From: a virus
Virus record (IMG/VR): IMGVR_UViG_3300045988_058617
Span: 30,063 to 94,062 of that record
Direction: 5' to 3' (one strand)
DNA: 64,000 bases
Numbering within the stretch: the first letter of the stretch is position 1; every line of letters begins with the position of its first letter. The notes beneath the pieces are model-generated. The model was given only the letters and a program-made list of their open reading frames with translations. It did no database searches and had not been told where the DNA came from. A program made the position numbers and the translations under genes. Below, piece after piece: positions 1,726 through 42,978 of the stretch.

Positions 1726-1853
1726 CGGAAGCGTTCGAGAATTAACCTACTAACACCCTTCATTCAACACTACGTTATCTTTTGCCTAGAGGCAAGGATA
1801 TTACTTAGCAAACTAAAAAAAAATAATAAAATGTTTCTAAATATATAATAACT

Positions 1854-1948
1854 CGACATTGGAATTGGGCATTGCTGACGTCATTGTTAGAATTGAAATA
1901 GCTGAGACCTGCATTGCTGCCATTATTCGCGTTGCTGCCTACTAGCAG
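1854..1948 (-). repeat. DGR template repeat (TR).
   Basis: A 95-nt segment homologous to 2056–2149 and 29275–29368. TR is the AT-rich copy, and every substitution relative to both VRs falls at a TR adenine (minus-strand sense). It lies between the target gene stop and the RT start. Confidence 0.8.
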
Positions 1949-2026
1949 TACTTTTTTGCCAATCAACGGTTTTTAGAAGTAATATCCTACGATTTATCAT
2001 CTAAATCGATTTTTATATTGTATATC

Positions 2027-3400
2027 TTAAGATACTCTATTCAGAGTCCTGAACCCGACATTGGAACCGGCATTGCCGACGCCATTGCCAGAACCGAAAA
2101 AGCCGAGACCTGCATTGCTGCCATAATGCGCGCTGCCGCCCACCAGCAGCGTGCGAAGCGCTGTGCTGCTTGCGTTGCAGTAATGGTAATCGCAAATATA
2201 AGTAGTAGCACTTCCTCCAACAGCGGATGGAATTATTTCAGCGGTTTCACCTAAGTCAAATGCCTTAATATAACCATCAGATGCTACTTCGTATCCTGCA
2301 ACGGTTTTCTCTCCAACTACGTCGGTAAATTCCGATACGTTAGTAGTTGTATAGACATTGCTAATCTCATTAGCAGCTGCCCTCACTATAACTACTCCGT
2401 CCAGGTTAGTCCAAATGTCTCCAAACGGATTATCGAACCCTCTCCAGCGAGGTACCTTAAATGTATGAGTTGCTACTGTACTTGTGCCATCTTGAGCTGT
2501 ACATTCTGGAATAACTAAATCTTTTACTCCAGTGAAGTTACCAAATTCATTGCAGTAACCACAAGGCGTAAGTGGAGATGTTGCATTATATCCTGACCAA
2601 CTTGTAGCTGCGTTAGCCCAATCTGTAACTCCAGGTCCTAAACCTCCTTGATGATATCCATCCGCAGTTAACTCTGCATTATATGCAGCCTAAGAATTAA
2701 AATTAGCATATTCAATGACATAATTCCAGTAGAATATCCATTTGTAATATTCATAGCATAGCAATTCTGAACCAGCATTTGTTGCATATGTTCTCATAGT
2801 AGCTCTAGAAATATTAGTTCTAGGCTTTCCTAAATCACTTCTGAATATATCCTTAGTTTCTAATTCTGTAGTTAGATAATCATCGTAGTTAGCTCTATTT
2901 CCTCCACCTCTAAATGCAGTAGTAGTATTAACTACTGATACAGCTTTTGGAGTTGCGGAGACTGTGGTATCAACTGTACTTCTGTATGCATCTATTAATA
3001 GTTCAGGAATTTCTACCCATGAATCATCAATTTTGACAGTAGAAGTTCTAACCCATCTTTTGTTTCCATCGCTGCCAGATTTTCCATAAAATTTAGGAGT
3101 ATTAACTCTTACTGTTCCATCAGTTCCATCTAAGACAGATGGAGTTTCGCCGTCTTCTTTATAAGACCAGTTATCTGGAAACAGATAGTAATTTACTACA
3201 TCATTGTTTGCTACACAACCTCTATACGCTGACTGAATAGGAAGAGATTTATGCAACAAAGGATTACCTATTCTAGTAAGTTCCGGAGATGCTACTGTAA
3301 CATCCCATTCTACTCCATAGGAATATAAATCCATATTACTATTTAGCTCAGTAACCTACTTATCAAGCTTTTGTTGTGCCTTCTACAATTCTTCCCAAGC
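2027..3400 (-). CDS. DGR target protein 1, a putative receptor-binding or tail-fibre protein with a C-terminal C-type-lectin-like variable region. It is recoded (in-frame TAG at 2690, 3356, 3383…); the N-terminal boundary is not resolved.
   Basis: ORFs 2027–2386 and 2690–3334 share a frame across TAG 2690–2692. TAG-to-Gln readthrough gives coiled-coil text (…ELQKAQQKLDKQVTELNSN…). The gene stops at TAA 2027–2029 and VR1 is embedded at its C-terminus. Confidence 0.6.
2056..2149 (-). repeat. DGR variable repeat 1 (VR1), at the 3' end of target gene 1.
   Basis: It is GC-richer than TR, with adenine-specific mismatches relative to TR (AAT/AAC codons in TR become GGT/GGC/CAT/TAT and so on). It is followed by the hairpin ttcag-gact-ctgaa. 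It encodes the segment …GSAHYGSNAGLGFFGSGNGVGNAGSNVG…. Confidence 0.8.
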
Positions 3401-6400: not shown

Positions 6401-9400
6401 TCTCCAGCATCATTCTTTATAAATGTAAGTGTAGGAGTTAATAAAGCAGTTCCCACTTCTACTATTTGAGAAGTAAAACTATAATAAAGCTATGGGTATA
6501 CTAAATCTCTAACTACTGTTGGAAACAGTAAAGTATCAATAATTTCATTAAAGGGCTTGCCCTTAAGTTTCTCTACTGTAGTCCCTTCAATTACTGTTGA
6601 AGTAGTATCATCTGGGAGTTCCGTCTAATAAGTAGCTATAGTTTCTAAGTTAGTTTGTATATTAGTAATACTTTCAGTATTAGCTTCTACTTTAGTATTT
6701 GTCTCTTGTTGTGCTTCCTAAGTTTTCTATACTTCTTTCTTTGTTTCTTCTAGAGCAGGTTCAAGATTCTTAACATAGATACCTGGAAGGATAATAGAAG
6801 AGGTTTCCTCTCCAATCTCCTATTCTATTAAATGAATAGCATTATCTTCCTAAGTAGATAAAATCACCTCTAAGGAATTATTTTCCTTTAGTTCTATAGT
6901 TTTGGAATTTTGGAGACTATTCTTAATCCAATTAAGAATGTTTTTATCAACATCTATATTCTCAATAGCATTGTTCAACTCAACTATAGCTTCATTGATT
7001 TTTACTATTTCTTCAGATAGATTATTAATTCCTTTTCTATTAATATCAATTTCTCGCTGTAAATCCTCCTTCAATACAGATATAGAAGTTCTAATATTGC
7101 TTATATCGACTTTCAGTTCTTCTATTGCTTCTGTATTAGATTCATATTCGCTAATAAAGTATAGGGCATAGTCTAGGGCATCCTTCACAGTATTAATGCC
7201 TTCTGCAACGTCACTAGTATAGGTCCATTTTTGTTCTATATACTATACTAGGTCTTTTTGCAGTTCTATGGTTCCACTAATGTTTCCCCACAATAGACTC
7301 TACTCATCAGCAATACCTAAGTTCTTTCTTACTTTAGCTTTTTCTAGTTCTGTCCTATATTCTCCTAAATAGTTATTTCTTAAGAGAGGTATAGGCTCAC
7401 ATTTTATAGGCTTACCCTTTTTACCACAAGGCACTATATCTGCGTTACTTACCGAAGTGTAAATAGACTGTATCATTCTAGTTTAATAATTGCTATTTAA
7501 TAAATTCGTGATTATCTAGTCTTACAGGTAGGTTAATAAAACAAATTAGATTAAGAATATCTTGATAATCTGGTTTATATCCCTTTTTGAGTTTTCTTAG
7601 AAAATCCTCATACCTTTTAATAGCCTTTCTCTTAAGAGCATCCACAACCTATACGTTTATGTCCATGGTGGTGATTGTCACAGAATCCTCCACAGGTACG
7701 GAACATCGCTAGTAATCTTTCAGCCTCCATGAATTGTTTAAAGCATATTAAATAATCTATAATGTTAAGAGTCATCCATATGAAATCTCGAGCAAATATA
7801 AGTGCTTCCTAATCTCTAGTTAGACACTTATTTAGTAAAGCATCAAAGAGTTTCTTACAATAATTAATGTAACACTACTACAAGTTTCCTGTAAAGAAAA
7901 CATCTACCTTACATTTTTTTATAGTAGTTCCTTCTATGTTTCGTTCAAGAACTTCTTTAACTGTACACTCTTCTAGCTTACCTTCTACTTCTTTATATAA
8001 TTTTTCTCCATCAGTAACATAGATAGTCTCATAGTATTCCTTGTATTCGTCCGATGAATTTTCATACCATTTCATATTAGGAATAATGATATGGTCTACT
8101 ACGTAATAACCATCATCCTTGACCTTAAACATACACGAGTCTAAGTCTTCTGTATGGTCATTAAGTAGGACATCTATCAGAGTAGCATCGCTTATACTAA
8201 CTTTGATGATAGTATTCAAGGTAGCACTCTCACTATACTTATAGGAGTCGTAAGAAGTTACTACCTCTACATCTTCATCAATATACTAGCCATATTCTTT
8301 TGAGAAATCTTCTATCAGTATTTCCCCATTAATTTGGGTATGTATATCAATACTAAATTCCATATTGCAATAATATTAAGTGTTAGGCCATTGACCGTAT
8401 TGAGCTGGTGTAGAAAAAGGTCCCCACTTTCCAGATTGCTTTATACGTCTAGACATAAAAACAGAAGTAAAAGATAAACTAATATCTTGTGGATAGTCAG
8501 TCCAGGTATAAGACTATCCATCTGGAGTAGGAGGTAATTTATCAATCCCAGAGGAGGGCTGTCCATTCCAGTAGTAGTTATAGTCATAGGCTTTAATAGA
8601 GGTTACTTCTGTGGTTTCTCTCCCGTCAGAATCTATATAGAGAGGATCTCCTTTTTCATTCGTTTTTTGTTTATACTCTATAACTGGTGTTATTCCCTCG
8701 GTTCTAGTATATATAGTCTATATAATAGTAGAGACATCACTCGCTACTATTTCATAGATAGTAGTTCCCTATGATTCATCAGCTCCCTAAAAAGTAAATT
8801 TAGTTCTTTTCCATATATATGGATTCTCTTCTGTTGGAAGCTCAAAAGTATCAGACCACTACTTACTTGATAGTTTTATTTCAGATTCATTGGCAGTATT
8901 AGCAGGGAGATAATGTATTTTAATAATAATACTATTAACTGCTTCACTTGAACCGGATAAATCTGATACCTACTTAAATAATTTTTTTAAGTCGTCTTCT
9001 ACATTTGATTTAGAACCGGAAGCATTACTTATAATTACTGTCCCATCAGAGATAGGATAAATCTACTACTAATCTTTGTTGTATACAATTGTTCCAGTTG
9101 CCATATTAATGTATTTGTCTTATTTTGTCATTATATGGATTTCCATCATGAAGCTAAGCCAACTCTATTTCAGTTCTTTTTTCTTCAATATCCATTTGTC
9201 TATCTTTATAAGTAGAATCAGACTGAGCTTTAAGCCAGTTAACTTTATATTCTAACTGCATCTTCTACTATTCTAATCCCAGTCTCTATTCATCTAAGCT
9301 TTCAATCTTTTGCTGAGCTTTCTATAATTCTTGCTATAACTACTGAGCCTATTGAGAAGTTTCTTCTAATTTTTCTTGTAGTTGCTGAAGCTGATTATTT

Positions 9401-11218
9401 TCCTCTTTGCGAACTTGAACAGCTTTCTTAACCTTATATTTAAGGTCTGTCAGACTCTTAGATGTAAGAGCCTCAAAAATAATATCTGGATCCATCTGTT
9501 GACTTTTTACGAACTCTGGAATGATTGCTTTTATAGTCTATAAATCTTCCATCACTTCTGAACTAGCAGTAATATGAATATCGTAGTCAGTAACAGTAAA
9601 ATACTCAGGAAGTGCGGTGAATATCTGTTGATATTTATCCCCAAGTATAATAGTTCCAGTTAATCCTTTCTTATAAGTAACTTTAGCCTAATTAAGACTA
9701 TCTAGTAGTATCTCGCAGGTTATTAAATCCATCTGCTAAAAATAGTGCTTAGTTACTATATACGAGTTAGCTACTCCCTACTTAATATTAGTAACTGCAT
9801 CTCTAGTTTCTATACCGTTAAGTCGTTCCCTAAATACTCCAGTTATTGATGATGTAGTTTGTTCTACTGATTGAATAGCTAGTTCAATAGCCTATACAGC
9901 CTATGCTTTTAAGGTATCATCAAATCCGTTATATATCTAGTTTGGAGCTTGCTGTCCGTCATTCCTACCTTCTTGGCTTGAGTCTATCCACATGATACCA
10001 CCTTTTTTATAAGCTAACCATTTTTGTACTCGTTCTGGCCATTTAACTCCTAAGTTGGTAGGCAACAGAGACATATCCATAATAACTCCAGCAGTACCAC
10101 TATTAGCTATTAGATTATCTCTATAATAGTTTAATAAGTCGTATCTATCCTACAGATGTGCACATTTTAATATAAGAGAATAAGGCTACTAAGAGCGATT
10201 TAAGAAATATACTCCATTTACCGATAAAGAACAGAAGTTGGGATTATCTTTAGACCTCATAACAGTCTTGTCTAATCCTCTAAGAATATATATCTCTTCT
10301 CCTATTCTGATAGTATTGTATCTCTACATCACAAAATCATCATCTGTTTCAATCCATTCAACATCATAGACTGGGATTAACTAGAACCTATGAGCACTAT
10401 ATTCATTGTCTGGATAGCCGGGAATGGTTTCATGATTCTAATCTTCATTTACTACTGTACAAGTATCTCCATATACTCTTCTATAAACAGCAGCTGAATC
10501 ATCAGCTCGCCATTCATCTTTTAGTCTTCTTAAATCTTCTCTAGATATTTCTTTGCCATATTTAGCTAAAATCTAACTCTTACTCATCCACTTTCTTACT
10601 ACAACTCTATATGAGTTCCTTACATATGGAGATTCTGGATTTCTATCAACAAATGTATTAAGTGGGTTTAATACCTCTATTTCAATATTAGTTCCAGAAG
10701 CCGATGATTTCACTCTAAAGAATGTATAACCAGTAATTAATAAGTCTGTTAGTAACTAACGTAACTTAGTAATTAAATCGGTTTCTCTGGATTGCATAAT
10801 ATAATGTACTATATTCTAAGCTGCAATTTCATATTGAGAAATAAAGGATTGGTCAATATCCTATATAATTTTATCTAACTAAGTCTTTACAGCTTTATCA
10901 GTAATATCCTTGCCATCAATAAACTTAAGAATTGAATTACTTAAATGGTCTTTCAAAAACTTTACTATTCCCTTGGTTATTTCTAGCTATTTTTCTCTTG
11001 TTATATTACTGATAGTATCTGAATCTTTGCAAGAAATTTTCGGAAGTATAGGAGTTCCTAAATATTCTCCAACTAGAGCATCTACGTGTTTCTTTAATAA
11101 AGGCGTAAACTCTACCGAAGTGGGGCTACCTATTCCGAAGTTTTCTTCCAGATAACGGAACTATTCAGGATCTCTTTTACCATTATAATAATTATAAGCT
11201 TTCTGTAACTCATACTTA
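3400..11218 (-). other. Block of TAG-recoded late/structural genes on the minus strand (tail/fibre-like and coiled-coil-rich proteins). Individual gene boundaries are not resolved.
   Basis: Six-frame ORFs here are short (4294–4485, 5663–5902, 6214–6456, 6850–7188, 7878–8219). Each terminates at a TAG (cta on the + strand), never TAA or TGA. The sequence between them has coding-like codon periodicity. Confidence 0.5.
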
Positions 11219-11680
11219 TCATATACAAGTTCCGCAATAGCCTCGTTTGTCTTGTCTATTAATTCCTTCTCTTTCATAACATAAATTATGTTGTTCTGGA
11301 GGAAGTTTAGTAGCGTTATAATACTTAACTCTTTGCAACTTCCTACTTCTTAATTCTTCCTTAATAAATGGCAGAAATTCTTCGTCTGGTAAATCTGCTA
11401 TTATTACTAATGGCATTTCTGACCTATCAAAGTTAAAAGAGACTTTATACCCAACTGGGTCTAAACTCTCAATATCTAGTCCGCCTATATACTCCATTTT
11501 GTACAAGTCCCTCATATATTCTAGGATCACTTGTTTCAACTCTGTATGGGTCATCATATTCGTTTCTTTGCATATTAAGTTCAGGAGTTTTCTTAGTTGG
11601 AATAACTCCAAATCTTTTAATTCCTCTCTCGTCGTAATAGTAACCAAAATCTTGGAACTATTCAACTTCTTTCTCCACAA
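11219..11680 (-). CDS. Hypothetical protein ending in TGA; it overlaps the 3' end of terL in another frame. The real start is probably an internal ATG.
   Basis: ORF track, 153 aa. The terminal TGA at 11219–11221 was verified. Confidence 0.45.
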   Translation of the reverse strand: MWRKKLNSSKILVTITTREELKDLELFQLRKLLNLICKETNMMTHTELKQVILEYMRDLYKMEYIGGLDIESLDPVGYKVSFNFDRSEMPLVIIADLPDEEFLPFIKEELRSRKLQRVKYYNATKLPPEQHNLCYEREGINRQDKRGYCGTCI

Positions 11681-13832
11681 GTACGGGCTGTCTTCCTGAT
11701 AGCTCTTGGTCTGCTAACTCAGTCATACCTACAGCGGCTACAATATCATACTTACCCTTATTTTCATCATTATATGCAGTGAACTATTCTAGCATTTCTT
11801 CGAACCATATAGTATGGCAATAGTCTTCTATAAAGGCGGCTGTTAAATCAGTATGCTATTCGATTATAGTTTTTGTAGCAGGAGTTCCATACTATTTAGT
11901 AGTTCCATTTCTAACGTCAGTTAGAGTAGCTCTTGGGCGCTTCATAAAATAGTTAAGGCATCCTTTTTCTCTAGCCCAAGTAACCATACCCATACGAGTA
12001 GCTTCTATATTTATTTTACAATTATAATAGCGAGCTAAACACATAGCTATTTTATAGGCTTCTCTGATGTCTCCAGGTCTATCCTTGTACATAGCAACAT
12101 ACTGAGGGTCATTCATACCAAACGCACGTTTCTTAATCGTTATGCAGAAATCAGACGGGTCTCTGGTTTCCTTAGAAGTCTAATTCGCTCCAATATCAAT
12201 ACCGTCTATACCTGCTACATATAAGTCTCGCATCTCTTTATAAACTGGAACTTCAAAATCCTAGCCATTATCTTCTGCCTCCTATCTAAGCTTTTCCATT
12301 TGTTCTTTATATAAGTCAGACCATATTGGATGCTCTAGAATTTTTACTTTGCCATTCCTGTTAGGAATCCATTTAAAACCATCAATATTATCCTAAGTAT
12401 GTTTATTATTTTTGTAAAAATAATCAATATAACCACATTCGGGTCTTGGGCCAATTTGTTTAAGTCTTATATTAGCTATCTATTCGGCAACTAAAATTTT
12501 ATTAAACTTATTAACACCTTCTAGATTAAATGCTTCTTCTGCATTCCAACAACGTTCAGCGCATTTCTTTAGGTAGTCTTCTGGTACAGCTAACAGATTA
12601 TCTCGCTCCTCCTATAAGAATTTCTTATATTCCACAGTATTACATACTCCTCTGTGGTCCATAAATTCTGGATTCAAAGATTGTATAAAGTATGGAATAA
12701 AGAATCCACTCTCTATAGTAGTCCCATCCTAAGTCCAATTATGTCTAAATGGAAGAATCTTATATGCTCTTGGATTATAGTAAATCTTTTTTAAGCCCTC
12801 TAGAGGAGCACCCATATCACCGCCAGTACCTCCAAACAACATTGTTCCACGAGGCATACCTTGAACTTCACAAAGTTCTTGACCTTGTACCACAGCGGTA
12901 TCAAGTCCAGGCCAGGAACCAGCTTCATCATATATTAATAAATCTACACGGTCTCCACGAATGTTAGATGGTTTAGCTCCGTTAATTGCTACAACCTCAG
13001 ATTTAAATCCTACGTCTTCAAACTAACCATTTATTTTGATTTGTTTACCTGATTTCTTTCTCAAATCCTGGTCAATAAGTCGCAATTTAAAAAATCCTCC
13101 TCCAGTACAGGTATTTAAGAATGTAAGAGCATTGTCAAACTTACTAAAGGTACCCTTAAGGAAGGTATCATTAAAGCAAGTAATCATAACCCTACTTCTT
13201 CTAATAATAGAGTACATACGAGCAGAAAGAGAGGCGTTTATTTCAGAGAATCCAATAGAACGAGCTTTCATTAAAGCTGCGTGCTTGTGTAGCACCCTAG
13301 CCATCTATAGATAATGAAAGAACGTATAATGTGATGCAAAGAATATTGGGAAGTCATTATCAGTACCCTCACCAGAGGCTTTCTACTAGTCAATAGTAGG
13401 TAACTAATAGAAATTTAAGAAGAAGTAATTATCTCCAGTAATGGTGTATCCATTAACTGTCATTCCATACTTACATCTTCTATATTGCTCTTTCCAAAAT
13501 TCGTTGTACCGCTTACTATCTCTAAGGTAGGGACAGTATTGACCAGTTCGTTTATATACTTCCCTAGTCTCGGTAAACCAATCTGGATTAAAGTCCAATC
13601 CATGAGTTTCGTCAATAGGTCTGTATCCAGTTATTTCATAAGATAAGGTAGGGTCAAATACTTCTATTTTATCTCCTATTTTAACATCCCAATAGTCAGA
13701 ATTTCTGACCCTTTCCTCTCTTATTTTCTATACTAATTCTCTAGCTTCTTTAGCATCCTCTTTCTATTCTTTTTCTCTTACCTAATCTACAATATTCTAT
13801 ATTTCTTCAGGTAATATCTTTTTTCTTGGCAT
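11616..13832 (-). CDS. terL: Terminase large subunit, about 738 aa, with many in-frame TAG codons (amber-recoded).
   Basis: Frame-0 ORFs 11892–12116, 13023–13304 and 13404–13598 are joined only by TAGs. Manual translation gives MPRKKILPEEI(Q)NIVD… from ATG 13832–13830, and a Walker-B/catalytic motif …RVDLLIYDEAGSWPGLD… near 12930. The frame terminates at TAA 11616–11618. Confidence 0.8.
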
Positions 13833-14432
13833 AATTAAAAGTCTCCTGGGTCAAAACCATCCACAGCTCCAGCTCTAACAGTAGATTGTTCAGTAAGTTC
13901 TTTCTTAACCTAGTCTTCTAGTGTTATGAGTTCTTCATGAACTTTGTGAAGGGTAGCCATTTCCTTCATTACTTTTTCAGCCTGGAATACTGGCTTGCCG
14001 TTATTATCACGCTCATTTAAATCTACAATAGTTTCGAAATAATCAATAAACTAGTCTGCAGCTCTTTTAGCTGCTTCCAGTAATTTTATTGACTTGTTTG
14101 AATCTTGTAACGCTCTGTACTTCCTACAGGCTTCTCTAAATATAGGGTCGTTAAATTCCGACTCTGTCAATCCAGAATCACTAATAGCTTCGTCATGTCG
14201 TTCATGTTCCGAATACTAACTGTACGGACTTTTCCAGTCTATAGCTAAATAAATGTAAGATAGTTCTCTAGTAGCTCTATCCTTTTCTGCAGATTTATCC
14301 CTCTAGATTAAAGCCTTAAATTCCTTAACTAGCAATATCTCTGGTTCATTTATTTCTAGCTATTTAGTTAAAGTGTTATAGTTAAATACATTCATAATCA
14401 TTAATCATTATCATACACATTAGATAATCTTA

Positions 14433-14567
14433 TTATTTCTTTTTCATTTTGGAACCGCACTTATTGACTTTCATTTTTGAGCCACAAGCGTCTTTCTTAG
14501 CATATTGTTTTCTGTCAGGAACCCATTTTCCTCCCTGGAAATTACCCTTATGTCCTTTATTGGCCAT
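14433..14567 (-). CDS. Small, very basic protein (about 44 aa, MANKGHKGNFQGGKWVPDRKQYAKKDACGSKMKVNKCGSKMKKK).
   Basis: Manual translation, below the ORF-track size cut-off. Its function is unknown. Confidence 0.3.
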   Translation of the reverse strand: MANKGHKGNFQGGKWVPDRKQYAKKDACGSKMKVNKCGSKMKKK

Positions 14568-14648
14568 AGTTTCCTAATCATTGTATTTATTGATTGATAT
14601 AGAATCTCTTGAGGCTTCGTCTCTAGCAGATTTCATATCTTTCTTATA

Positions 14649-15914
14649 CTAAGCTCTTCCTGCCTTAAATTTATCAACTTCATTAGCTTTCTTAGTAACT
14701 TTAGTTCCTTTTTGTGCTTTCTGGCAAGCTTTACAGATTCTACCGCCTTGCTTAAAATATACAAGCTCTTCTCCTTCTGGACATACTCCTTTTAGCTTCT
14801 TATAATACTCAAGCTTAGCTCCAAGCCTAGCCATTACTCCTCCTTGCATTTTCTGCATAAATTCCTGATACTTAGCTTTAATGCCGTCTTCACCTAATTG
14901 TTCAGCATAAGCTTGTAAATCCTGTTCAGACTATATCTGAACTCCCTATGACTGCGCATCCTATATTAAATATGCCACAAACGCTTTTTGTAATTCTTGT
15001 TGATTATTCATTGTTCCTCCTTGTTGAAATTTAGTTGTAGGTCCCGGAGATAATGTTAATGGTTCAGCTTCTGATTTTCTAGAATTCCATACATCTCCAA
15101 GATAATTAAATAATCTCAACCTCCTATGTATCCCAAAATCTCCTCCTTGTACTGTATTTCCCATAGTATATCTACTAGTGGCCTGTACAGGATTTACTTT
15201 AGGCTTACTTGAAGGCTACTCGGCTCTTGTCTATTCACTAGCTGGCTAACGGCCTCCTGTAATAGTTGGTATTCCTCTACCCCAAGTAGTTCCTTTTGTT
15301 GTAGCAATTAGGTCTGGAGATTCTATACTAATCTAAGTACCTAACTAAGGAATCTGAATGGCAGAAGGTTGTTTAGGCTTACTTGAAGGCTACTCGGCTC
15401 TTGTCTATTCACTAGCTGGCTAACGGCCTCCTGTAATAGTTGGTATTCCTCTACCCCAAGTAGTTCCTTTTGTTGTAGCAATTAGGTCTGGAGATTCTAT
15501 ACTAATCTAAGTACCTAACTAAGGAATCTGAATGGCAGAAGGTTGTTTAGGCTTACTTGAAGGCTGTCCTAAGTCTGTAGTATATACAGAATTTCCCCAC
15601 ATAAACTGTTTTAGTCCTCTCTCTCTAGCAGCCCTAAAAGCTGTCTTAAAATCTTTAACACCTCTTAAATCATCCTAAGCTATTTCAGCAGTAGGAAGAG
15701 GTTCTAATCTTGTGGGTAATGAAGGCATTTCTGGAGCATCAAAATATGTCTCTTGTAACTTAGGCATTTTCTATTGTGCGGTTCTTCTAATAATGTCTGG
15801 ATTAGTTGCCCAAGTCTAATGCAACTACCTCAAGGTTCTCTCATCTAAGTCCGCATCTCCGTAAATAATTTTGATATTACGCATCAATTCAGGGTCAAAC
15901 TACACTTTAGCCAT
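14649..15914 (-). CDS. Late protein (recoded) containing a tandemly duplicated 58-aa P/T/Q/S-rich segment. The 3' boundary is uncertain.
   Basis: ATG at 15914–15912 (MAKV(Q)FDPELMRNIK…). The frame-0 ORFs 14961–15164 and 14649–14858 continue the same frame across TAGs. The gene carries the 174-bp repeat. Confidence 0.45.
15201..15566. repeat. Perfect 174-bp tandem direct repeat: 2 full copies plus an 18-bp third copy, in-frame within a late gene.
   Basis: Units 15201–15374 and 15375–15548 are identical. 15549–15566 restarts the unit and then diverges. 174 nt is 58 codons. Confidence 0.85.
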
Positions 15915-15916
15915 TA

Positions 15917-16069
15917 CTCTTCTACTTTAATTAAATCCTTAGTATTAAACACTGCTTCCTACATAAGTCCGGAATCAGTAAACCATCTACATCTTAATCC
16001 TCGTAATCCTTGGTTATCTTTAAATAAAGCTGCTTCTCTTCTTAGAACAAGCATAACTGGAGAGTGCAT
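15917..16069 (-). CDS. Small hypothetical protein (about 50 aa) with one in-frame TAG.
   Basis: Manual translation: MHSPVMLVLRREAALFKDNQGLRG…. Confidence 0.25.
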
Positions 16070-16124: not shown

Positions 16125-16742
16125 TCAATTGTTTCCATGCTTCAATTCGTCTCTTCTTTCAGTTAGTTTCTCATTAACTACAGCCATGATTCTATTCTCA
16201 TTAACTACTACAAATCCTAGTTTATAGAATGGAACCATACATTCGCTAGCTATTGTATAAAATACAATATCTCCAGGCTTCAAGAACTCACACTTGTGTC
16301 CTACTTCTATCACAGTTCCTACTTTAATAAATTGTTGTTCTTCTTCAATTTCTCCAGTCTCATTAGATTTATAAGTAGGAGTAAATCCACCTAAATCAGT
16401 AATAAGACCACTTTTAGTAGTTTTTATTTTTTGGAATGGGTTTCGTTCAAAAGGTTTAATTAATGCATACCCATACATCGGCATAATTTCAAGTCCATTC
16501 ATATCGTTAGATAATGACTTAGCGTAATCCTCTAGTGCCTGATTATGTTTGGAGAATTTATCCTCTAACTCATCTACTGCGGTATTAAACTTCTCTTGTT
16601 TTTCTCTTAATAATGTTTGGTCTGCAGCTTCTCCATTTAAAATAAAATGTTCTCCCGTACCTTCCATTCCAGTTAATGATAGTGCTAGTTTTTCGTTACT
16701 GTTTAATTCTGTTCTTAAAGTTTCCATAATCCATTTTACCAT
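16125..16742 (-). CDS. Hypothetical protein (205 aa). The C-terminal part has a GroES-like pattern (…LKPGDIVFY…). Standard coding, ends TGA.
   Basis: ORF track. No in-frame TAG. The stop tca→TGA at 16125 was verified. Confidence 0.55.
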   Translation of the reverse strand: MVKWIMETLRTELNSNEKLALSLTGMEGTGEHFILNGEAADQTLLREKQEKFNTAVDELEDKFSKHNQALEDYAKSLSNDMNGLEIMPMYGYALIKPFERNPFQKIKTTKSGLITDLGGFTPTYKSNETGEIEEEQQFIKVGTVIEVGHKCEFLKPGDIVFYTIASECMVPFYKLGFVVVNENRIMAVVNEKLTERRDELKHGNN

Positions 16743-16930
16743 TTACATAAATCACAATGTTCATCTTCAATTCTTGTTTTATTCTCTAATATACAACCAC
16801 ATTCATCGCACACTTCCCCAACAGATGTTTGTAATTTATGGGAACAAGCGTCACAAATTTTTAATCTTTTGGTTGCCAAATCTTGATTTATTCCGAATAT
16901 ATTGAAATATATACTTTTCAATATTGTCAA
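16736..16930 (-). CDS. Small Cys-rich zinc-ribbon protein; a paralogue of 17059–17274.
   Basis: ORF track. It has CxxC…CxxC and ends …HCDLCKW, which parallels …HCPAGKW in the neighbour. Confidence 0.5.
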   Translation of the reverse strand: MTILKSIYFNIFGINQDLATKRLKICDACSHKLQTSVGEVCDECGCILENKTRIEDEHCDLCKW

Positions 16931-17058
16931 AGGTTTAGTAAATATTGCTTTAATCCACTTCCATATTATATCTTTTTCCTACTTTGTTTCCCTATTTATA
17001 TTTTGGACAGTAAGTATATAATGCTTATCTAGTTTATATAATATAGGAGTTCCATAAA

Positions 17059-17274
17059 TTACCATTTCCCTGCTGGACAATGTTTCTTTTCGTTTGGAAT
17101 CTTCTTCTCTAGTAAACATCCACATCCCTTTATATACCCTTCTTTAGGGCTTATACTTATATCATTATTCTTTGGATTTAGATACAAATGCCCATTACAT
17201 AATCCATTATCTTGGTCACATATTGGACAGCGTCTACATATCTCAAATCTTTCTTCTATTTCCTCTAGTGTCAT
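17059..17274 (-). CDS. Small Cys-rich zinc-ribbon protein (paralogue).
   Basis: ORF track, with CRRCPICD…CGC…HCPAGKW. Confidence 0.5.
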   Translation of the reverse strand: MTLEEIEERFEICRRCPICDQDNGLCNGHLYLNPKNNDISISPKEGYIKGCGCLLEKKIPNEKKHCPAGKW

Positions 17275-17276
17275 AA

Positions 17277-18191
17277 TTAATATTCAATACGTTGACGTTT
17301 TCTTTTATTTTCTGCCAATATAGATTCCTTCTTATAGAAGGCTAGCATTTTTATAACCTCATCTTTTAGATATGGCAAATGATATACTGTCATATTATCA
17401 TTATGGTCGAAATGTACCAAAACCAAATCCTCTATTTCAAACTCTGGATTTTTCTTTTGAATCATCCAAGCATAAGTACTTAATTGTAAAGTATAGTGCC
17501 AGTAATTAACATCATCTAAATTATTTAGAGGATATTTCATCTTAACAGAAGTTTTAGTTTTAGAATTGAAGAAACTCTTAGTTTCTATTTTCTTATTGGT
17601 CTTCCAGTCTCCTATAATTATCTTATTTCCTCTTTTAACTAATAAGTCAATCTGTCCTGCTATTCTTAGCTTTCCATCATCCGATACTCTAGATATTAAA
17701 TACTCAGGATATACACCATTCTCTAAGTCTAATTCATTGTGGTCTTTTATACACTCGAACTTGCCACCTATTTGATATTTACTAAGGTCTATGTTCTGTT
17801 TCTTTTTATAGAAAGAGTTTTCCAAATCTGCATGGATTTTAGTTCCCCTCTCGCATGAGTTTCTATTCTCTAAATCCCAAGCATCTAAGATAGCTTGTTG
17901 CTCTTTATTAAACTCGTCTTCTGTAATGTTATGAAGTTCAAGTAGAACTTTATCAAATTTCTTAGTGTTTAACAAAGACTTTTTTTCTATAGCCCAATCT
18001 TCTTTAGGTAAGAGTTTCTCTAGTGCTTTATATGCTGACCAGAACTCCTTATCAAATGGTTGGGTGAAAGAATGAATTAAAGTCGTTACAGATATAAACT
18101 TCTGTTCTGGCTTTGTAACATCATAATAAATATGAGCTTCTTCCTCAAAAGCTATGTTCCCATTTTGTTTTGTAATTTTACTTTTGTCCAT
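17277..18191 (-). CDS. PD-(D/E)xK family nuclease (YqaJ/lambda-exonuclease/Cas4-like).
   Basis: ORF track, 304 aa. It has the motif …IAGQIDLLVKRGNKIIIGDWKTNKK…, which is typical of the D…(D/E)xK catalytic core. Confidence 0.5.
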   Translation of the reverse strand: MDKSKITKQNGNIAFEEEAHIYYDVTKPEQKFISVTTLIHSFTQPFDKEFWSAYKALEKLLPKEDWAIEKKSLLNTKKFDKVLLELHNITEDEFNKEQQAILDAWDLENRNSCERGTKIHADLENSFYKKKQNIDLSKYQIGGKFECIKDHNELDLENGVYPEYLISRVSDDGKLRIAGQIDLLVKRGNKIIIGDWKTNKKIETKSFFNSKTKTSVKMKYPLNNLDDVNYWHYTLQLSTYAWMIQKKNPEFEIEDLVLVHFDHNDNMTVYHLPYLKDEVIKMLAFYKKESILAENKRKRQRIEY

Positions 18192-18305
18192 TAGTCATAA
18201 TTCATTTAATCATTTATCACATTTATCTATATTTATTTGATACTTTTCAAGTATATTAATATTCTTTGTAAGATACAAATCAATAAATAAGACATTATAT
18301 TAAAA

Positions 18306-18647
18306 ATGTCTAATATGACAAAAATGGTAACATTTGGATGTCCAATTTTTAAAAACGGGTCAGGTATTCATATTAAAGAGAAAAACAAAGGTAAATTTAC
18401 TGCCTCTGCTAAGGCTGCAGGATAGTCTGTACAGGAACATGCTAAATCTGTACTAAACAATCCTAATGCTACTCCGCTTCAGAAGAAGCGTGCTAACTTT
18501 GCTAGAAACGCGGCTAAATGGAAACACGAAGATGGAGCTAAGATACATAAACCAAGTGGACATAGATCTATTCTAGATAATGGATGGATTCCTACTACTA
18601 GATTAAAGAAAGGAAATTATGGATTAATTAAAACAAGAAAGCAATGA
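18306..18647 (+). CDS. Hypothetical protein (113 aa) on the plus strand inside the late block, with one in-frame TAG (amber-recoded).
   Basis: Manual translation MSNMTKMVTFGCPIFK…AAG(TAG)SVQEHAKSV…KTRKQ*. The TAG is at 18423–18425 in frame. Confidence 0.45.
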
Positions 18648-18722
18648 GCGCTGTAGTTAAATTAATTAAAGAATTTATACTTAAGATATATCTTTATTTA
18701 CTATTTATATTTAATAAGTAAT

Positions 18723-18914
18723 ATGGACTATAATAGAGCAACTCTTTATGCGGCTACTGGTCGTACTTTATTACTCCCTGGCTGGAAAGGGGATTTTTAT
18801 TGGGACTATACTAAGAATGAATTAAATTTTAGAAATGGAGACTATCATTTAGATAACAAATAGCTCAAGGAGAAAGGAGTTATGGAACGTAATGATTGGT
18901 ATTATATAATATGA
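18723..18914 (+). CDS. Small hypothetical protein with one in-frame TAG.
   Basis: Manual translation MDYNRATLYAATGRTLLLPGWKGDFYWDY…. Confidence 0.35.
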
Positions 18915-19303
18915 TAATTAAAAATAATATTATACCGTTTGGAGGTTATAAAGTAATTAATCTGTTTGGATTAATATTTACTAAGTCGGATTTGACTGAT
19001 GAGGATAAGAATCACGAGAATATCCATTCAGTATAGATTTTAGAATGTGCAATAGCGTTTGCAATACTTATATCTATATTATTTGGATTAGAATGGGTAT
19101 GGTTAGCTATTCCATCTTTCTATATCTGGTATGGATTAGAGTATTTAATTATACGACTATTAAGACTTAAAGATTCTCAAAATGATTGCTACAGAGATGT
19201 AAGCTTTGAAGAAGAAGCTTATATGAATGAAGACAATTTACAGTATCTAGAAGGATAGAGAAAGATGTTTTCATGGATAAAATATCTAAAAGTTAATGCA
19301 TAA
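18911..19303 (+). CDS. Small membrane protein (two predicted TM helices) with 2 in-frame TAGs.
   Basis: Manual translation MIIKNNIIPFGGYKVINLFGLIF…. The start overlaps the previous stop (ATGA). Confidence 0.35.
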
Positions 19304-19304
19304 C

Positions 19305-19345
19305 AAAATAGGCGAACTTAGACAATTAAGTCTAGGCTCGCCTAT
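19305..19345. terminator. Putative bidirectional terminator hairpin between the convergent genes 18911–19303 (+) and 19348–19560 (−).
   Basis: An imperfect inverted repeat (ggcgaac…gctcgcc) followed by a T-run on the plus strand. Confidence 0.3.
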
Positions 19346-19347
19346 TT

Positions 19348-19560
19348 TTATTTACTATTATACGTACAAGTGATTCTGTTTGGCTCTTCCCACCAAGGTT
19401 TATCTGAAAGTGGAGTTCTGATGCTATTGGGCCAATTTATAATTGGAGTAGTTTCCTCTACTATAGCCTCCATTATTTTAAATAATGTATCCAAGTCTAG
19501 CTCTGGAAGCAGCTCATGAATATTAGTTATTGTTTTCTTATAATTTATCATACCCTTCAA
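19348..19560 (-). CDS. Hypothetical protein.
   Basis: ORF track, 70 aa. Confidence 0.4.
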   Translation of the reverse strand: MKGMINYKKTITNIHELLPELDLDTLFKIMEAIVEETTPIINWPNSIRTPLSDKPWWEEPNRITCTYNSK

Positions 19561-19906
19561 AAGTGTCGTTAATAATTGCTTTCTCTATTGTAGTATCTTT
19601 ATATAAACCATGTTGTAGTATATTTCTTACTTGATGGTCTACTTGATTCCATATATCTAATAATATAGAAGAATCATCTGAAAGACTATATTGTGGATAG
19701 CTAGCCCTTAAACTGCTAAGTACTTTGCCATTAATGTAAATGTCAAATACGAAATTTTTTATATCATCTGTAGTTTCTCCAGAAATTCCTTCAGCTCTTT
19801 GTAAAAGTTTAAGAGCCTTTTCATATACTTCCCTTTCTTCACGCTTAATTCTTGAAGAATTGAGCATCATCATATTTGCGGCTACTGACATATTAGTACG
19901 ATACAC
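19538..19906 (-). CDS. Hypothetical protein.
   Basis: ORF track, 122 aa. Confidence 0.45.
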   Translation of the reverse strand: MYRTNMSVAANMMMLNSSRIKREEREVYEKALKLLQRAEGISGETTDDIKNFVFDIYINGKVLSSLRASYPQYSLSDDSSILLDIWNQVDHQVRNILQHGLYKDTTIEKAIINDTFEGYDKL

Positions 19907-20055
19907 TTAGCTTATTTAAGTTGTCTAGATAATCTAAGAACCATTGTTCGTTTTGTTTTCCTTCTTCTACAATAGTATTAATTAAAGATTCTGTAGCTAA
20001 TAGTGTTATTTCTGCTAGCTCCTCTAATTCCGATTTAGTAAGTTCGTTATATTTT

Positions 20056-20370
20056 TCAATCAAGTTTAACATAATCCATCCAGTCTTTTATATATGATTT
20101 ACATTCTTCCAAATCTGGATAGATACTTGTTATAGAGCATCCAGTTTTCGGATTTTTAAAGTGATGCATCTTAGTCTCTTCTTTTTTCTCCTCTTCTGTA
20201 TTTCTATTTAATGTTCTATTCCAATAGTTGTACTTTTCATCTAACATTTCCATATCACATTCCTCTAATATTTTCATATTAGGGTTATTCATTATCTTGT
20301 CGTATTTTCTCTTTAAATTAGAGACTTTGACAACATCATTTCCATTTAATACAACTGCACACTGTTTCAT
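20056..20370 (-). CDS. Hypothetical protein.
   Basis: ORF track, 104 aa. Confidence 0.45.
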   Translation of the reverse strand: MKQCAVVLNGNDVVKVSNLKRKYDKIMNNPNMKILEECDMEMLDEKYNYWNRTLNRNTEEEKKEETKMHHFKNPKTGCSITSIYPDLEECKSYIKDWMDYVKLD

Positions 20371-20594
20371 TTCAATACCTTATAAGTACATATCTTGCCT
20401 ATCTGTTTTCCTTGAATTGTTATTTGCGGAAGAAAATAGCAGGCTTGATTCTCAAATTCTTGAGGTACAAAGATATAATCAAACTTACTTCCAACTACCT
20501 TCTCACAAACTTTATTCCAATCGTCTCCCTCTTCTATAATAAGAGTTTTAGCTCCTGTTGGAGTTACTACATAATTCTCATTTAATTTTATCAT
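20367..20594 (-). CDS. Hypothetical protein. The true start is probably MIKLNENYVV at about 20594; the ORF-track N-terminal extension overlaps the tRNA.
   Basis: ORF track 20367–20669, trimmed at the internal ATG. Confidence 0.45.
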   Translation of the reverse strand: MIKLNENYVVTPTGAKTLIIEEGDDWNKVCEKVVGSKFDYIFVPQEFENQACYFLPQITIQGKQIGKICTYKVLK

Positions 20595-20611
20595 AACTAT
20601 TAATTTTGGCG

Positions 20612-20683
20612 TTGCCCTACTAGGATTCGAACCCAGACTAAATGATTTAGAGTCATCTGTGCTGACCATTACACCATAGGGCA
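20612..20683 (-). tRNA. Amber-suppressor tRNA, anticodon CUA (reads UAG), with a Gln-tRNA-like scaffold.
   Basis: Manual fold: acceptor TGCCCTA/TAGGGCA, D arm GTGT-AATGGTCA-GCAC, anticodon stem GATGA/TCATT, loop CTCTAAA (U33, CUA, A37), T arm CTGGG-TTCGAAT-CCTAG. Its overall architecture is almost identical to tRNA-Gln(UUG) at 33540. Confidence 0.8.
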
Positions 20684-20821
20684 GTAACTTATTTCTCTTT
20701 TAGAGATTTATTTTCTGCTGCCAATTTCTCTAGTTCTTTTCTTAATTGTTCATTTTCGTGAAATAAAGCCTGCATAGTAGCGTTGATATTAGCTAATAGT
20801 ATTCTCATTTGAGCAACCTAT

Positions 20822-21223
20822 TCATACATAAGCTTTCAGTTGTTCAATTCTCTTTTTAGCTATATCTGACAATGCCATTTTGAATTTAGCAATACCAGCT
20901 CTTACTGTTTCTAACTTGCCGCTTTCTAAGCATTCTTGTATTTTATGAACTTCAAGCTCTCCTAGATATTCGCATACATCTATAAATAAATCATCATCTA
21001 GAGATTCTAAATATTTCTGGAATTGGTCTGCCTCTTCATTAGCTAGACAGCTTTCTTCCTTCTATCTTTCATAAGATATTAATAAGAACAAAGAATCGTC
21101 GGTAGATTCGGACTTAATAGTTAGCCCATTACCAGACATATAATATTCTTGATTCGTATTAATTGCCTCAACTAGCTATTTAAACTAGTCCTAATTTAAC
21201 AATGTTTCTAAGTCTGTAATCAT
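20822..21223 (-). CDS. Hypothetical protein (133 aa) with 4 in-frame TAGs, ending in TGA.
   Basis: Manual translation from ATG 21223–21221: MITDLETLLN(Q)D(Q)FK(Q)LVEAINTNQEYY…KAYV*. Confidence 0.45.
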
Positions 21224-21548
21224 AATTGTTTTCTTTTTAGTTATATACAACAATAACCTCCGAAAAGTTAAACGCAAAGTTAAAAAATTCTAATTCAAAT
21301 ATTATACATATTTTATATATTAAGGGGAAAGCCGGTACAGGTACTTTATATAAATAGCCCCCTGGGGTTATTATAAATTCCGACTTTTATATTTGGAGGG
21401 CAATTACCTAGATTCCAAAAATTCATAGAGTGAGTGTAGTGGCGGTCCACCACTACGTTAGACCCCCCCTGGGGTTCGTAGTGGAAAATAAATATCCATA
21501 TATATAATCCCTAACCATATAAGAGTAATAATTATAAATTTTATAACA
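21224..21548. promoter_or_regulatory. Divergent intergenic control region between the minus-strand recoded genes and the plus-strand early genes. It contains two copies of CCCCCTGGGG (21357–21366, 21465–21474) and an inverted repeat gtagtgg-cggtc-caccactac (21436–21456).
   Basis: About 320 nt with no ORF, flanked by divergently oriented genes. The repeats were seen directly. Promoter function is inferred. Confidence 0.35.
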
Positions 21549-42952: not shown

Positions 42953-42978
42953 CATGACAGGGCTATAGTTCAACCGAT

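What the first reader, a model, noticed from the sequence alone, without database searches (positions are those of the whole stretch)
20612..20683. Phage-encoded amber suppressor tRNA (CUA) derived from a Gln tRNA, placed at the boundary of the recoded gene block
A well-formed 72-nt cloverleaf on the minus strand has the anticodon loop CUCUAAA (anticodon CUA). Its scaffold (acceptor, GTGTAATGGT D arm and overall layout) is nearly superimposable on the tRNA-Gln(UUG) gene at 33540–33611. This supplies the decoding mechanism for the TAG-to-Gln recoding. It lies between standard-coded genes and a recoded gene, on the same strand as the late genes.
Basis: seen in the sequence. Interest (0 to 1): 0.75.

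Follow-up and report, generated by a model that had tools for sequence, protein, structure and literature searches.

The report
Phage amber-suppressor glutamine tRNA
This is a real, conserved phage tRNA gene built on a glutamine-tRNA scaffold. It reads the stop codon TAG so that the phage's late genes, which are full of in-frame TAGs, can be translated. The device is already well described for this group of gut phages.

Summary
ARAGORN and Rfam both call a canonical 72-nt tRNA at 20612-20683 (-), scoring 66.3 bits against a threshold of 29. The anticodon loop is CUCUAAA, so the anticodon is CUA.

**Functional gene.** The same gene sits upstream of the terminase gene, on the same strand, in 48 of 57 related phage loci. 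Across its variants 11 of 21 stem pairs show compensatory changes.

**Glutamine scaffold.** A profile built from cellular Bacteroidota/PVC-type tRNA-Gln genes scores it 47.6 bits. The phage's own tRNA-Gln(UUG) scores 59.7 bits and the next best tRNA 13.5.

**Recoding.** TAG makes up 129 of 254 Gln-type codons in the minus-strand late genes. It is absent from 6,750 plus-strand codons. At conserved terminase columns TAG exchanges with CAA/CAG in relatives.

- Identity to the Gln(UUG) gene is 70%, not "nearly superimposable".
- The heavily recoded block starts 4.7 kb downstream of the tRNA, not next to it.

The phenomenon is already published for large Zeta-type crAss-like phages, so novelty is low.

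The most interesting side result is a second, unrelated suppressor tRNA at 23597-23666 (+). Its anticodon is UUA here but CUA, or once CUG, in near-identical phages. The phage also encodes a tmRNA.

The parts
20612..20683 (-). tRNA-A: amber-suppressor tRNA, anticodon CUA, on a Bacteroidota-type tRNA-Gln scaffold; no encoded CCA
   Evidence: ARAGORN. Rfam RF00005 at 66.3 bits with the loop CUCUAAA. Family covariation: 98.9% of cells paired and 11 of 21 pairs with changes on both sides. Gln-profile score 47.6 bits against 13.5 or less for non-Gln tRNAs. Present on the TerL strand in 48 of 57 related loci, and always CUA.
20822..21223 (-). Conserved 133-aa gene of unknown function immediately 5' of the tRNA, with 4 in-frame TAG codons
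   Evidence: Translation. Homologous 131-132-aa genes sit directly upstream of the tRNA in L001 and L004, and TAG and Q exchange between them. No PHROG match.
20689..20835 (-). Short coiled-coil-like ORF whose stop codon ends 5 nt before the 5' end of the tRNA
   Evidence: Read from the sequence and translation. Whether it is a real gene was not tested.
16125..20585 (-). Mostly TAG-free genes between the tRNA and the recoded block (small ORFs, a PD-(D/E)XK-type exonuclease, a GroES-like protein). The first ORF starts about 25 nt after the 3' end of the tRNA.
   Evidence: 0 TAG in 807 codons of five confident ORFs. PHROG matches to exonuclease and GroES families. ORF map.
433..15926 (-). Heavily TAG-recoded late block: TerL (terminase large subunit), portal, tail and structural proteins, and the DGR reverse transcriptase
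   Evidence: 1-28 in-frame TAGs per ORF. TAG is 129 of 254 Gln-type codons. PHROG matches for TerL, portal, tail protein and reverse transcriptase.
33540..33611 (+). Phage tRNA-Gln(UUG), the closest relative of tRNA-A within the window
   Evidence: ARAGORN and Rfam. 70% identity to tRNA-A. Gln profile score 59.7 bits.
23597..23666 (+). tRNA-B: a second, unrelated suppressor-type tRNA with anticodon UUA, which reads UAA and by wobble UAG. It is the first tRNA of the plus-strand tRNA array.
   Evidence: ARAGORN 'tRNA-Stop (tta)'. Rfam 57.3 bits. Family covariation: 96.3% paired and 11 of 21 pairs with changes on both sides. The orthologous gene in relatives carries CUA in 20 loci, UUA in 8 and CUG in 1. 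No hit to the Gln profile.
21302..21548 (.). Strand-switch region between the leftward (late) and rightward gene arms; the cumulative GC-skew minimum lies here
   Evidence: ORF maps. GC skew changes sign at about 20-22 kb.

Best explanation
The gene at 20612-20683 (-) encodes a functional amber-suppressor tRNA. It is a Bacteroidota-type tRNA-Gln scaffold whose anticodon is CUA instead of UUG or CUG.

It belongs to a roughly 185-192 kb Zeta-type crAss-like gut phage that uses two codes. The plus-strand arm (tRNA array, auxiliary and replication-type genes) and a few minus-strand genes are written in the standard code. The minus-strand structural and packaging block uses TAG as its most frequent glutamine codon.

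Proposed mechanism, with the status of each step:
1. (Inferred) The tRNA is transcribed as part of the leftward polycistronic arm. It is packed 5 nt after one ORF and about 25 nt before the next, just inside the strand-switch point.
2. (Inferred) Host RNase P and a 3' processing enzyme cut it out, and host CCA-adding enzyme completes it, because no CCA is encoded.
3. (Inferred) Host GlnRS charges it with glutamine. It keeps the features conserved in Bacteroidota tRNA-Gln, and C34 and U35 remain.
4. (Inferred) It then competes with release factor 1 at UAG. This allows full-length TerL (20 TAGs), portal (28 TAGs) and tail proteins to be made.

Shown directly: the structure, the anticodon, the conservation and covariation, the Gln-type scaffold, the block-wise distribution of TAG, and the equivalence of TAG with CAA/CAG.

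A second suppressor (tRNA-B, UUA here) on the opposite arm probably shares the decoding load.
For: Structure and anticodon frame.

Purifying selection on the fold:
- 98.9% of cells form pairs, and 11 of 21 pairs change on both sides. Registers slid by 1-3 columns give 40-53% pairing.
- The CUA anticodon is invariant in the suppressor orthologs at 67-99% TerL identity.
- Synteny of [131-133-aa gene]-[tRNA] is conserved.

Gln scaffold:
- Profile score 47.6 bits, against 13.5 or less for all non-Gln tRNAs in the window.
- 72-78% identity to the most similar of the cellular tRNA-Gln genes compared (Bacteroidales, Cytophagales, PVC), sharing U1:A72, G2:C71, the D arm, A73 and no CCA.

Demand for a UAG decoder:
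- 129 in-frame TAGs in 4,855 late codons, which is 51% of Gln-type codons. There are 0 in 6,750 plus-strand codons.
- TAG shows no special +4 or -1 nucleotide context, so it behaves as an ordinary sense codon.

TAG equals Gln: codon-level TAG-to-CAA/CAG exchanges, and Q enrichment in relatives whose TerL has no TAG.

Precedent: suppressor tRNAs and late-gene recoding in crAss-like and Zeta phages (PMC7886860, PMC12386605, bioRxiv 10.1101/2021.08.26.457843), and proteomic proof of TAG-to-Gln (PMC9523058).
Against: - Expression, processing and charging have not been observed. They are inferred from sequence.
- Position 36 (A instead of G) and position 38 (A) differ from normal tRNA-Gln. Charging efficiency by the host GlnRS is therefore unknown.
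- No phage GlnRS, release factor or RF1 inhibitor was found near the tRNA or among the larger window ORFs. It is unexplained how 20-28 consecutive UAGs per gene are read efficiently against RF1.
- A second tRNA able to read UAG (tRNA-B) exists, so tRNA-A may not be solely responsible.
- About two thirds of the genome lies outside the window and was not examined.
- Three recoded relatives (L026, L032, L040) show no CUA tRNA within the roughly 9-10 kb upstream that was held.
Confidence: 0.85

Rival explanations
1. tRNA-A is real but redundant. The main UAG decoder is tRNA-B (UUA here, CUA in most relatives) or a host factor, and tRNA-A contributes little.
For: tRNA-B is a well-folded, covarying tRNA. 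It lies in the standard-coded plus arm, so it could be made before the late genes. U34 can wobble-read UAG (established knowledge of ochre suppressors). Three recoded relatives lack a detectable tRNA-A in the sequence held.
Against: tRNA-A is the more conserved of the two. It is present, and always CUA, in 48 of 57 loci, including lineages at 67-72% TerL identity in which no tRNA-B was found. tRNA-B alleles include CUG, a 1-nt loop deletion and an aberrant loop, so in some genomes B cannot read UAG even though their TerL genes still carry 15-16 or more in-frame TAGs.
Confidence: 0.1
2. The suppressor is mainly an anti-host weapon. It causes read-through of host TAG-terminated genes and weakens defence, rather than serving as the decoder of phage genes.
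For: PMC12386605 reports many Zeta crAss-like phages that carry a CTA suppressor without any in-frame TAG, and proposes this role. In this window, plus-strand ORFs ending in TAG have a backup TAA or TGA 3-6 codons later in 4 of 5 cases. That pattern suggests the phage protects its own genes from read-through.
Against: This genome has 129 in-frame TAGs in essential late genes, which cannot be expressed without a UAG decoder. Decoding is therefore at least a necessary function. An anti-host effect could exist alongside it.
Confidence: 0.04
3. The tRNA inserts an amino acid other than glutamine, for example pyrrolysine as the ARAGORN label suggests, or Glu, Lys or Tyr.
For: ARAGORN prints 'tRNA-Pyl'. 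At TAG columns distant relatives also show E, K and D.
Against: The ARAGORN label only reflects the anticodon. The gene has a canonical cloverleaf with GG in the D loop, a UUCGAAU T loop, a 5-bp anticodon stem and two bases between the acceptor and D stems. By established knowledge tRNA-Pyl has none of these. The scaffold scores as Gln. Q is the most enriched residue at TAG columns, and TAG swaps with CAA as well as CAG. E, K and D are ordinary substitutes for Q.
Confidence: 0.01

Closest known systems
Suppressor tRNA(CUA) of TAG-recoded (code 15) crAss-like phages, especially the Zeta group (Yutin et al. 2021, PMC7886860; Borges et al., bioRxiv 10.1101/2021.08.26.457843; Peters et al. 2022, PMC9523058; PMC12386605 Table 1 entries 13-16)
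   Same: - Large genome of about 180-190 kb and about 35% GC, with 23-28 tRNAs and a DGR.
- Amber recoding confined to late structural genes.
- A phage-encoded CTA suppressor, with TAG read as Gln.
- TerL distantly related to Crassvirales TerL, at 25-28% identity.
   Different: Nothing essential differs. The cited papers do not describe the suppressor's Gln scaffold, its fixed position next to the strand switch, or a second suppressor gene with variable anticodon. The string 'TTA' does not occur in PMC12386605.
CUA tRNA annotated 'tRNA-Gln' directly upstream of TerL in crAss-like phage cr52_1 (NC_055888.1, Suoliviridae)
   Same: A phage-encoded CUA tRNA on the TerL strand, upstream of TerL, in a phage whose TerL also contains in-frame TAGs.
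   Different: The scaffold is different: UAGUAUAAUGG D arm, and poor alignment at the 3' half. It lies 15 nt from TerL rather than 6.8 kb away. The phage family is different and the genome is about 100 kb.
E. coli supE (glnV44) amber suppressor, a tRNA-Gln with CUG mutated to CUA (established knowledge)
   Same: A glutamine tRNA whose anticodon has become CUA. It is charged by GlnRS, which tolerates A36, and inserts Gln at UAG.
   Different: supE is a spontaneous chromosomal mutant and a moderate suppressor. Here the gene is a conserved, selected phage gene serving hundreds of sense-like TAG codons. The discriminator is A73 as in Bacteroidota, not G73.
tRNA-Gln(TTG) to TTA point mutation in an alpha-group crAss-like phage (Yutin et al. 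2021, PMC7886860)
   Same: A phage tRNA that becomes an ochre-type suppressor (UUA) through one anticodon change, with no sign of TAA reassignment. This parallels tRNA-B in this window.
   Different: Here the UUA allele appears to derive from a CUA suppressor (C34 to U) in a phage that is already TAG-recoded. It occurs in two sequence variants across 9 genomes.

Membership tests
Canonical tRNA (Rfam RF00005) | Full cloverleaf scoring above the curated gathering score, with a 7-nt anticodon loop, U33, GG in the D loop and a T loop of the form UUCRANY | tested here: met
   66.3 bits against a gathering score of 29, model positions 1-71 of 71, no non-canonical pairs. ARAGORN agrees.
Canonical tRNA (Rfam RF00005) | Stems maintained by compensatory substitutions among homologues | tested here: met
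   98.9% of cells paired. 11 of 21 pairs change on both sides. 0 of 500 shuffles reach the observed values. Slid registers give 40-53% pairing.
Amber suppressor tRNA | Anticodon CUA at positions 34-36 in the canonical loop frame | tested here: met
   Loop C32 U33 C34 U35 A36 A37 A38. CUA is invariant in the suppressor orthologs.
Amber suppressor tRNA | UAG codons are actually decoded as sense in the same genome | tested here: met
   129 in-frame TAGs in ten contiguous late ORFs with TerL, portal and tail homology. Translation itself was not observed.
tRNA-Gln isotype (Bacteroidota type) | Sequence profile of cellular tRNA-Gln genes scores it far above other isotypes | tested here: met
   47.6 bits, against 59.7 for the phage Gln(UUG) and 13.5 or less for all other tRNAs in the window. 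The profile sequences were collected with a pattern containing the D-arm motif, so this test is not fully independent of that motif.
tRNA-Gln isotype (Bacteroidota type) | Conserved features U1:A72, G2:C71, G10, the D arm UGGUGUAAYGGU..CAC, discriminator A73 and U35 | tested here: met
   All are present. Pair 3:70 varies among the cellular genes, so C3:G70 is not a mismatch. The D-arm motif occurs in 126 of 126 Gln tRNAs and 0 of 21 non-Gln tRNAs in the cellular loci.
tRNA-Gln isotype (Bacteroidota type) | Aminoacylation with glutamine by GlnRS | not testable with these tools
   Inferred from the scaffold, from the TAG-to-Gln codon equivalence, and from proteomics in other crAss-like phages (PMC9523058).
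Code-15 (TAG to Gln) partially recoded crAss-like phage, Zeta type | In-frame TAG restricted to late structural genes, with other genes in the standard code | tested here: met
   TAG counts per ORF. 51% of Gln-type codons in the late block against 0% elsewhere.
Code-15 (TAG to Gln) partially recoded crAss-like phage, Zeta type | Phylogenetic placement within the Zeta clade of Crassvirales-like phages | tested here: inconclusive
   TerL is 25-28% identical to Crassvirales TerL. Relatives sit on contigs of 180-195 kb. GC content, tRNA number, the DGR and amber use match PMC12386605 Table 1 entries 13-16. No tree was built and no named Zeta genome was compared directly.
tRNA-Pyl (ARAGORN's label) | Atypical fold: 6-bp anticodon stem, 3-nt variable loop, small D loop without GG, one base between the acceptor and D stems (established knowledge). 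Also accompanying pylS and pylBCD genes. | tested here: not met
   Canonical fold with a 5-bp anticodon stem, 4-nt variable region, 8-nt D loop containing GG, and U8-G9. No such genes were found among the ORFs scanned.

The most novel reading that the evidence does not exclude
This phage lineage may carry a coordinated 'termination-management' kit rather than a single suppressor. The kit would have three parts:
- the conserved Gln-type CUA tRNA on the late arm;
- a second, unrelated suppressor on the opposite arm, the two flanking the strand switch and GC-skew minimum;
- a phage tmRNA.

The anticodon of the second tRNA toggles between CUA, UUA and CUG among phages with 87-99% identical terminases. 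The UUA allele, present here, would extend read-through to TAA, the phage's and host's main stop codon. That could be a step towards wider recoding, or a way of damaging host translation. The tmRNA would then clear the resulting non-stop ribosomes.
Probability: 0.2. Interest if true: 0.55.

Novelty: already known. Interest (0 to 1): 0.2.

Why it matters
The finding confirms that this window must be annotated with TAG read as Gln for its late genes, and it identifies the decoder. That matters for correct gene calling, but it adds no new principle. Suppressor tRNAs in TAG-recoded crAss-like and Zeta phages are published, and TAG-to-Gln has proteomic support.

Three modest additions come from this work:
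- Explicit evidence that the suppressor is a host-phylum-type tRNA-Gln scaffold. This explains why host GlnRS could charge it.
- Its conserved position beside the strand switch.
- A second suppressor gene with a polymorphic anticodon, plus a conserved tmRNA. Together these offer a natural experiment on how far stop-codon read-through can be pushed.

Tried and rejected
- **Megablast of 15-27 kb against INPHARED phages.** It returned only a 38-bp match to two crAss-like phages, so no close annotated relative exists there.
- **Sigma-70 promoter scan around the tRNA.** It found 37 sites against 38.3 expected by chance, which is uninformative. Bacteroidota and phage promoters are not covered by the tool.
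- **Nucleotide context of in-frame TAG (+4 and -1).** No bias relative to CAA, CAG or all codons.
- **In-frame TAA as a sign of reassignment.**
  - TerL has the same length as in relatives.
  - One pair of same-frame ORFs is separated by a single TAA (8376-8378). That junction is identical in genomes with UUA and with CUA tRNA-B alleles, so there is no link.
- **A 'code-change module' (aaRS or release factor) next to the tRNA.** The neighbours have no PHROG or Pfam function of that kind.
- **Pyrrolysine reading.** Rejected on structure.
- **Residues at TAG columns in database homologues.** These were first found to be 61% Q. This was discounted as circular, because the homologues are themselves TAG-recoded and had been translated with code 15. 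It was replaced by codon-level tests.
- **Raw pairwise identity as evidence of Gln ancestry.** Too weak, at 70% for Gln against 68% for Thr. It was replaced by the profile test.

Full report
**1. The observation**

ARAGORN finds 23 tRNA genes in the window. The only one on the minus strand is at 20611-20683, with anticodon CTA at position 34. ARAGORN labels it 'tRNA-Pyl' purely because of the anticodon.

The Rfam tRNA covariance model matches 20612-20683 (-) over its full length, at 66.3 bits against a gathering score of 29. The printed alignment has no non-canonical pair and posterior probability 1.00 throughout. It places C-U-C-U-A-A-A in the anticodon loop. The gene reads UGCCCUA-UG-GUGU-AAUGGUCA-GCAC-A-GAUGA-CUCUAAA-UCAUU-UAGU-CUGGG-UUCGAAU-CCUAG-UAGGGCA-A and is followed by CGCC, so no CCA is encoded.

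**2. The genome**

The window has 35.5% GC. Its minus-strand ORFs from 433 to 15926 become long and contiguous only if TAG is read through, with 1-28 TAGs per ORF. PHROG matches in this block include:
- terminase large subunit (TerL), 11469-13850
- portal, 9106-11349
- a tail protein, 2027-3853
- a reverse transcriptase, 433-1800

TerL has thousands of homologues. Many lie on contigs of 180-195 kb. The best annotated relatives are Crassvirales terminases at 25-28% identity.

They also match the Zeta group of Yutin et al. (PMC7886860). I did not build a tree, so the assignment is probable rather than proven.

**3. Code usage**

| Gene set | Codons | TAG | CAA | CAG |
|---|---|---|---|---|
| Ten late minus-strand ORFs | 4,855 | 129 | 87 | 38 |
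| 29 plus-strand ORFs | 6,750 | 0 | 119 | 82 |
| Five minus-strand ORFs, 16.1-20.6 kb | 807 | 0 | 22 | 6 |

TAG is therefore 51% of Gln-type codons in the late block and absent elsewhere. In-frame TAGs show no special +4 or -1 context.

Database homologues show Q at 61% of the window's TerL TAG columns. This is circular, because those homologues are themselves TAG-recoded and were translated with code 15. Their genes do not translate to the stored protein under table 11. I therefore compared codons directly.
- At conserved TerL columns, TAG in one genome faces CAA or CAG in another, in both directions.
- Two distant relatives whose TerL has no TAG (L052 and L058) have Q at 7 of 38 aligned positions, against a 3-4% background.
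- The small gene upstream of the tRNA shows the same TAG/Q exchange.

TAG-to-Gln in crAss-like phages has direct proteomic support (PMC9523058).

**4. Is the tRNA functional?**

The same gene, here called tRNA-A, is present on the TerL strand 6-9 kb upstream of TerL in 48 of the 57 related loci held. These span 67-99% TerL identity, and the anticodon is always CUA. In 30 loci the sequence is identical to the window.

The divergent variants change the acceptor, anticodon and T stems compensatorily. For example, UGCCCUA/UAGGGCA becomes UCUCUUA/UGAGAGA. In a nine-sequence alignment, eight suppressor variants plus the window's tRNA-Gln(UUG), 98.9% of cells pair and 11 of 21 pairs change on both sides. 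No shuffle reaches these values, and slid registers give 40-53% pairing. This is a gene under selection for a tRNA fold.

**5. Is it a Gln tRNA?**

Raw identity to the window's tRNA-Gln(UUG) is 52 of 74 positions (70%), barely above tRNA-Thr at 68%. 'Nearly superimposable' is therefore too strong. The anticodon stem is entirely different, and acceptor positions 3-5 differ, with compensatory changes on the 3' side.

A stronger test came from cellular genomes. A scan for the D-arm motif plus a UUG anticodon returned tRNA-Gln genes from Prevotella, Bacteroides, other Bacteroidales, Flavobacterium, and PVC bacteria among others.
- These genes share U1:A72, G2:C71, a variable 3:70 pair, the UGGUGUAAYGGUAGCAC D arm and discriminator A73. 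In the Bacteroidota genes no CCA is encoded. tRNA-A has all of these features, and the most similar of these genes are 72-78% identical to it.
- In those loci the motif occurs in all 126 Gln tRNAs. Four of these are CUG isoacceptors that the search pattern did not select. It occurs in none of 21 other tRNAs.
- A profile HMM built from these genes scores the window's Gln(UUG) 59.7 bits and tRNA-A 47.6 bits. The next best tRNA scores 13.5 bits.

The Gln ancestry claim is supported. A73 rather than G73 is simply the Bacteroidota norm.

**6. Position**

Minus-strand genes run from 21301 down to 1. Plus-strand genes run from about 21500 to 64000. GC skew changes sign there, and its cumulative minimum lies at about 20-22 kb. 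tRNA-A is therefore the second or third gene of the leftward arm.

Its 5' neighbour is a conserved 133-aa gene with 4 TAGs. A short ORF ends 5 nt before the tRNA. The next ORF starts about 25 nt after it. About 4.4 kb of almost TAG-free genes follow before the heavily recoded block begins at 15926.

'Boundary of the recoded block' is loose. The tight packing argues for co-transcription and endonucleolytic release, which is inference. The promoter scan was uninformative.

**7. A second suppressor**

At 23597-23666 (+), the first tRNA of the plus-strand array has anticodon UUA (Rfam 57.3 bits). Its orthologues in relatives occupy the same position, opposite in strand to TerL and 2.4-3.4 kb beyond tRNA-A. 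Their anticodons are:
- CUA in 20 loci
- UUA in 8 loci, in two sequence variants
- CUG (Gln) in one locus
- a loop with a 1-nt deletion in two loci
- an aberrant loop in one locus

The family covaries well, with 96.3% of cells paired and 11 of 21 pairs changing on both sides. It does not match the Gln profile, so it is a different scaffold.

UUA and CUA alleles occur in phages with 97-99% identical TerL. They are probably interchangeable as UAG readers through U34 wobble, which is inference from classical ochre suppressors. I found no sign that TAA is reassigned. ORF ends agree with relatives, and one in-frame TAA junction is the same in UUA and CUA genomes. Yutin et al. described an analogous TTG-to-TTA change in an alpha-group phage.

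**8. Comparison with the literature**

Phage-encoded CUA suppressors, late-gene-restricted TAG-to-Gln recoding, and their frequency in Zeta crAss-like phages are all published. RefSeq even annotates a CUA tRNA next to TerL in crAss-like phage cr52_1 as tRNA-Gln. The finding is therefore correct but already known in kind.

What remains open here, as in the field, is how 20-28 UAGs per gene are read efficiently against RF1. No aaRS, release factor or inhibitor was seen near the tRNA or among the larger window ORFs.

**9. Verdict**

Novelty is low and interest is 0.2. The side observations are the parts most worth a further look: the polymorphic second suppressor, and a tmRNA conserved in this phage lineage.

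Noticed in passing
window 23597-23666 (+): A second suppressor-type tRNA with anticodon UUA, on a scaffold unrelated to tRNA-Gln. The orthologous gene in near-identical phages carries CUA (most), UUA, CUG, or a damaged loop. The anticodon is therefore polymorphic within the lineage.
   Followed up: partly
window 42392-42955 (+): A phage-encoded tmRNA. Rfam RF00023 scores 68.8 bits with E = 1e-24, though ARAGORN misses it. It has G3:U70 in the acceptor stem, large insertions, and a tag reading frame AEIAPVRMAA followed by a stop. The exact 30-nt 3' end recurs in 29 IMG/VR contigs, about 21 of which also carry the related TerL. It may deal with non-stop ribosomes created by stop-codon read-through. 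The crAss-like papers consulted do not mention it.
   Followed up: partly
window 433-3853 (-), repeats at 1868-1948 and 2069-2149: A diversity-generating retroelement (DGR). A reverse transcriptase gene (phrog_1423) sits next to a tail-protein gene. An 81-nt template repeat is 83% identical to a variable repeat in the 3' end of the tail gene. Every difference falls at an adenine of the coding strand.
   Followed up: partly
window 28834-28899, 34452-34519, 38787-38888, 40575-40647 (+): Four further Rfam tRNA hits (36-41.5 bits) that ARAGORN does not call. One is 102 nt long with an internal insertion, possibly an intron. This brings the tRNA count to about 27.
   Followed up: no
window about 20000-22000: GC skew changes sign and its cumulative minimum lies here, coinciding with the switch from minus-strand to plus-strand genes. 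This may be the replication origin. The two suppressor tRNAs flank it.
   Followed up: partly
window 21993, 25702, 34371, 44637, 57364 (+): The few plus-strand ORFs that end in TAG have a backup TAA or TGA 3-6 codons later in 4 of 5 cases. This fits protection against the phage's own suppressor.
   Followed up: partly
window 18195-19350: A stretch of about 1.1 kb inside the minus-strand arm has no convincing minus-strand ORF. It has locally positive GC skew and two terminator-like hairpins on the plus strand. It could be an inserted or non-coding element.
   Followed up: no
window 7632-9119 (-): Two 247-aa ORFs lie in the same frame, separated by a single TAA at 8376-8378. Ochre read-through by the UUA tRNA would fuse them. 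The junction is identical in genomes with the CUA allele, so no link was found.
   Followed up: yes
L059:381-456 (NC_055888.1 93287-93362): The 'tRNA-Gln' annotated just upstream of TerL in crAss-like phage cr52_1 has anticodon CUA, so it is an amber suppressor. The TerL ORF of that phage also contains 11 TAGs.
   Followed up: partly
window 24220-24257: A 38-bp stretch is 97% identical to sequence in crAss-like phages cr131_1 and cr272_1. Nothing is annotated there in those records, and its nature was not examined.
   Followed up: no
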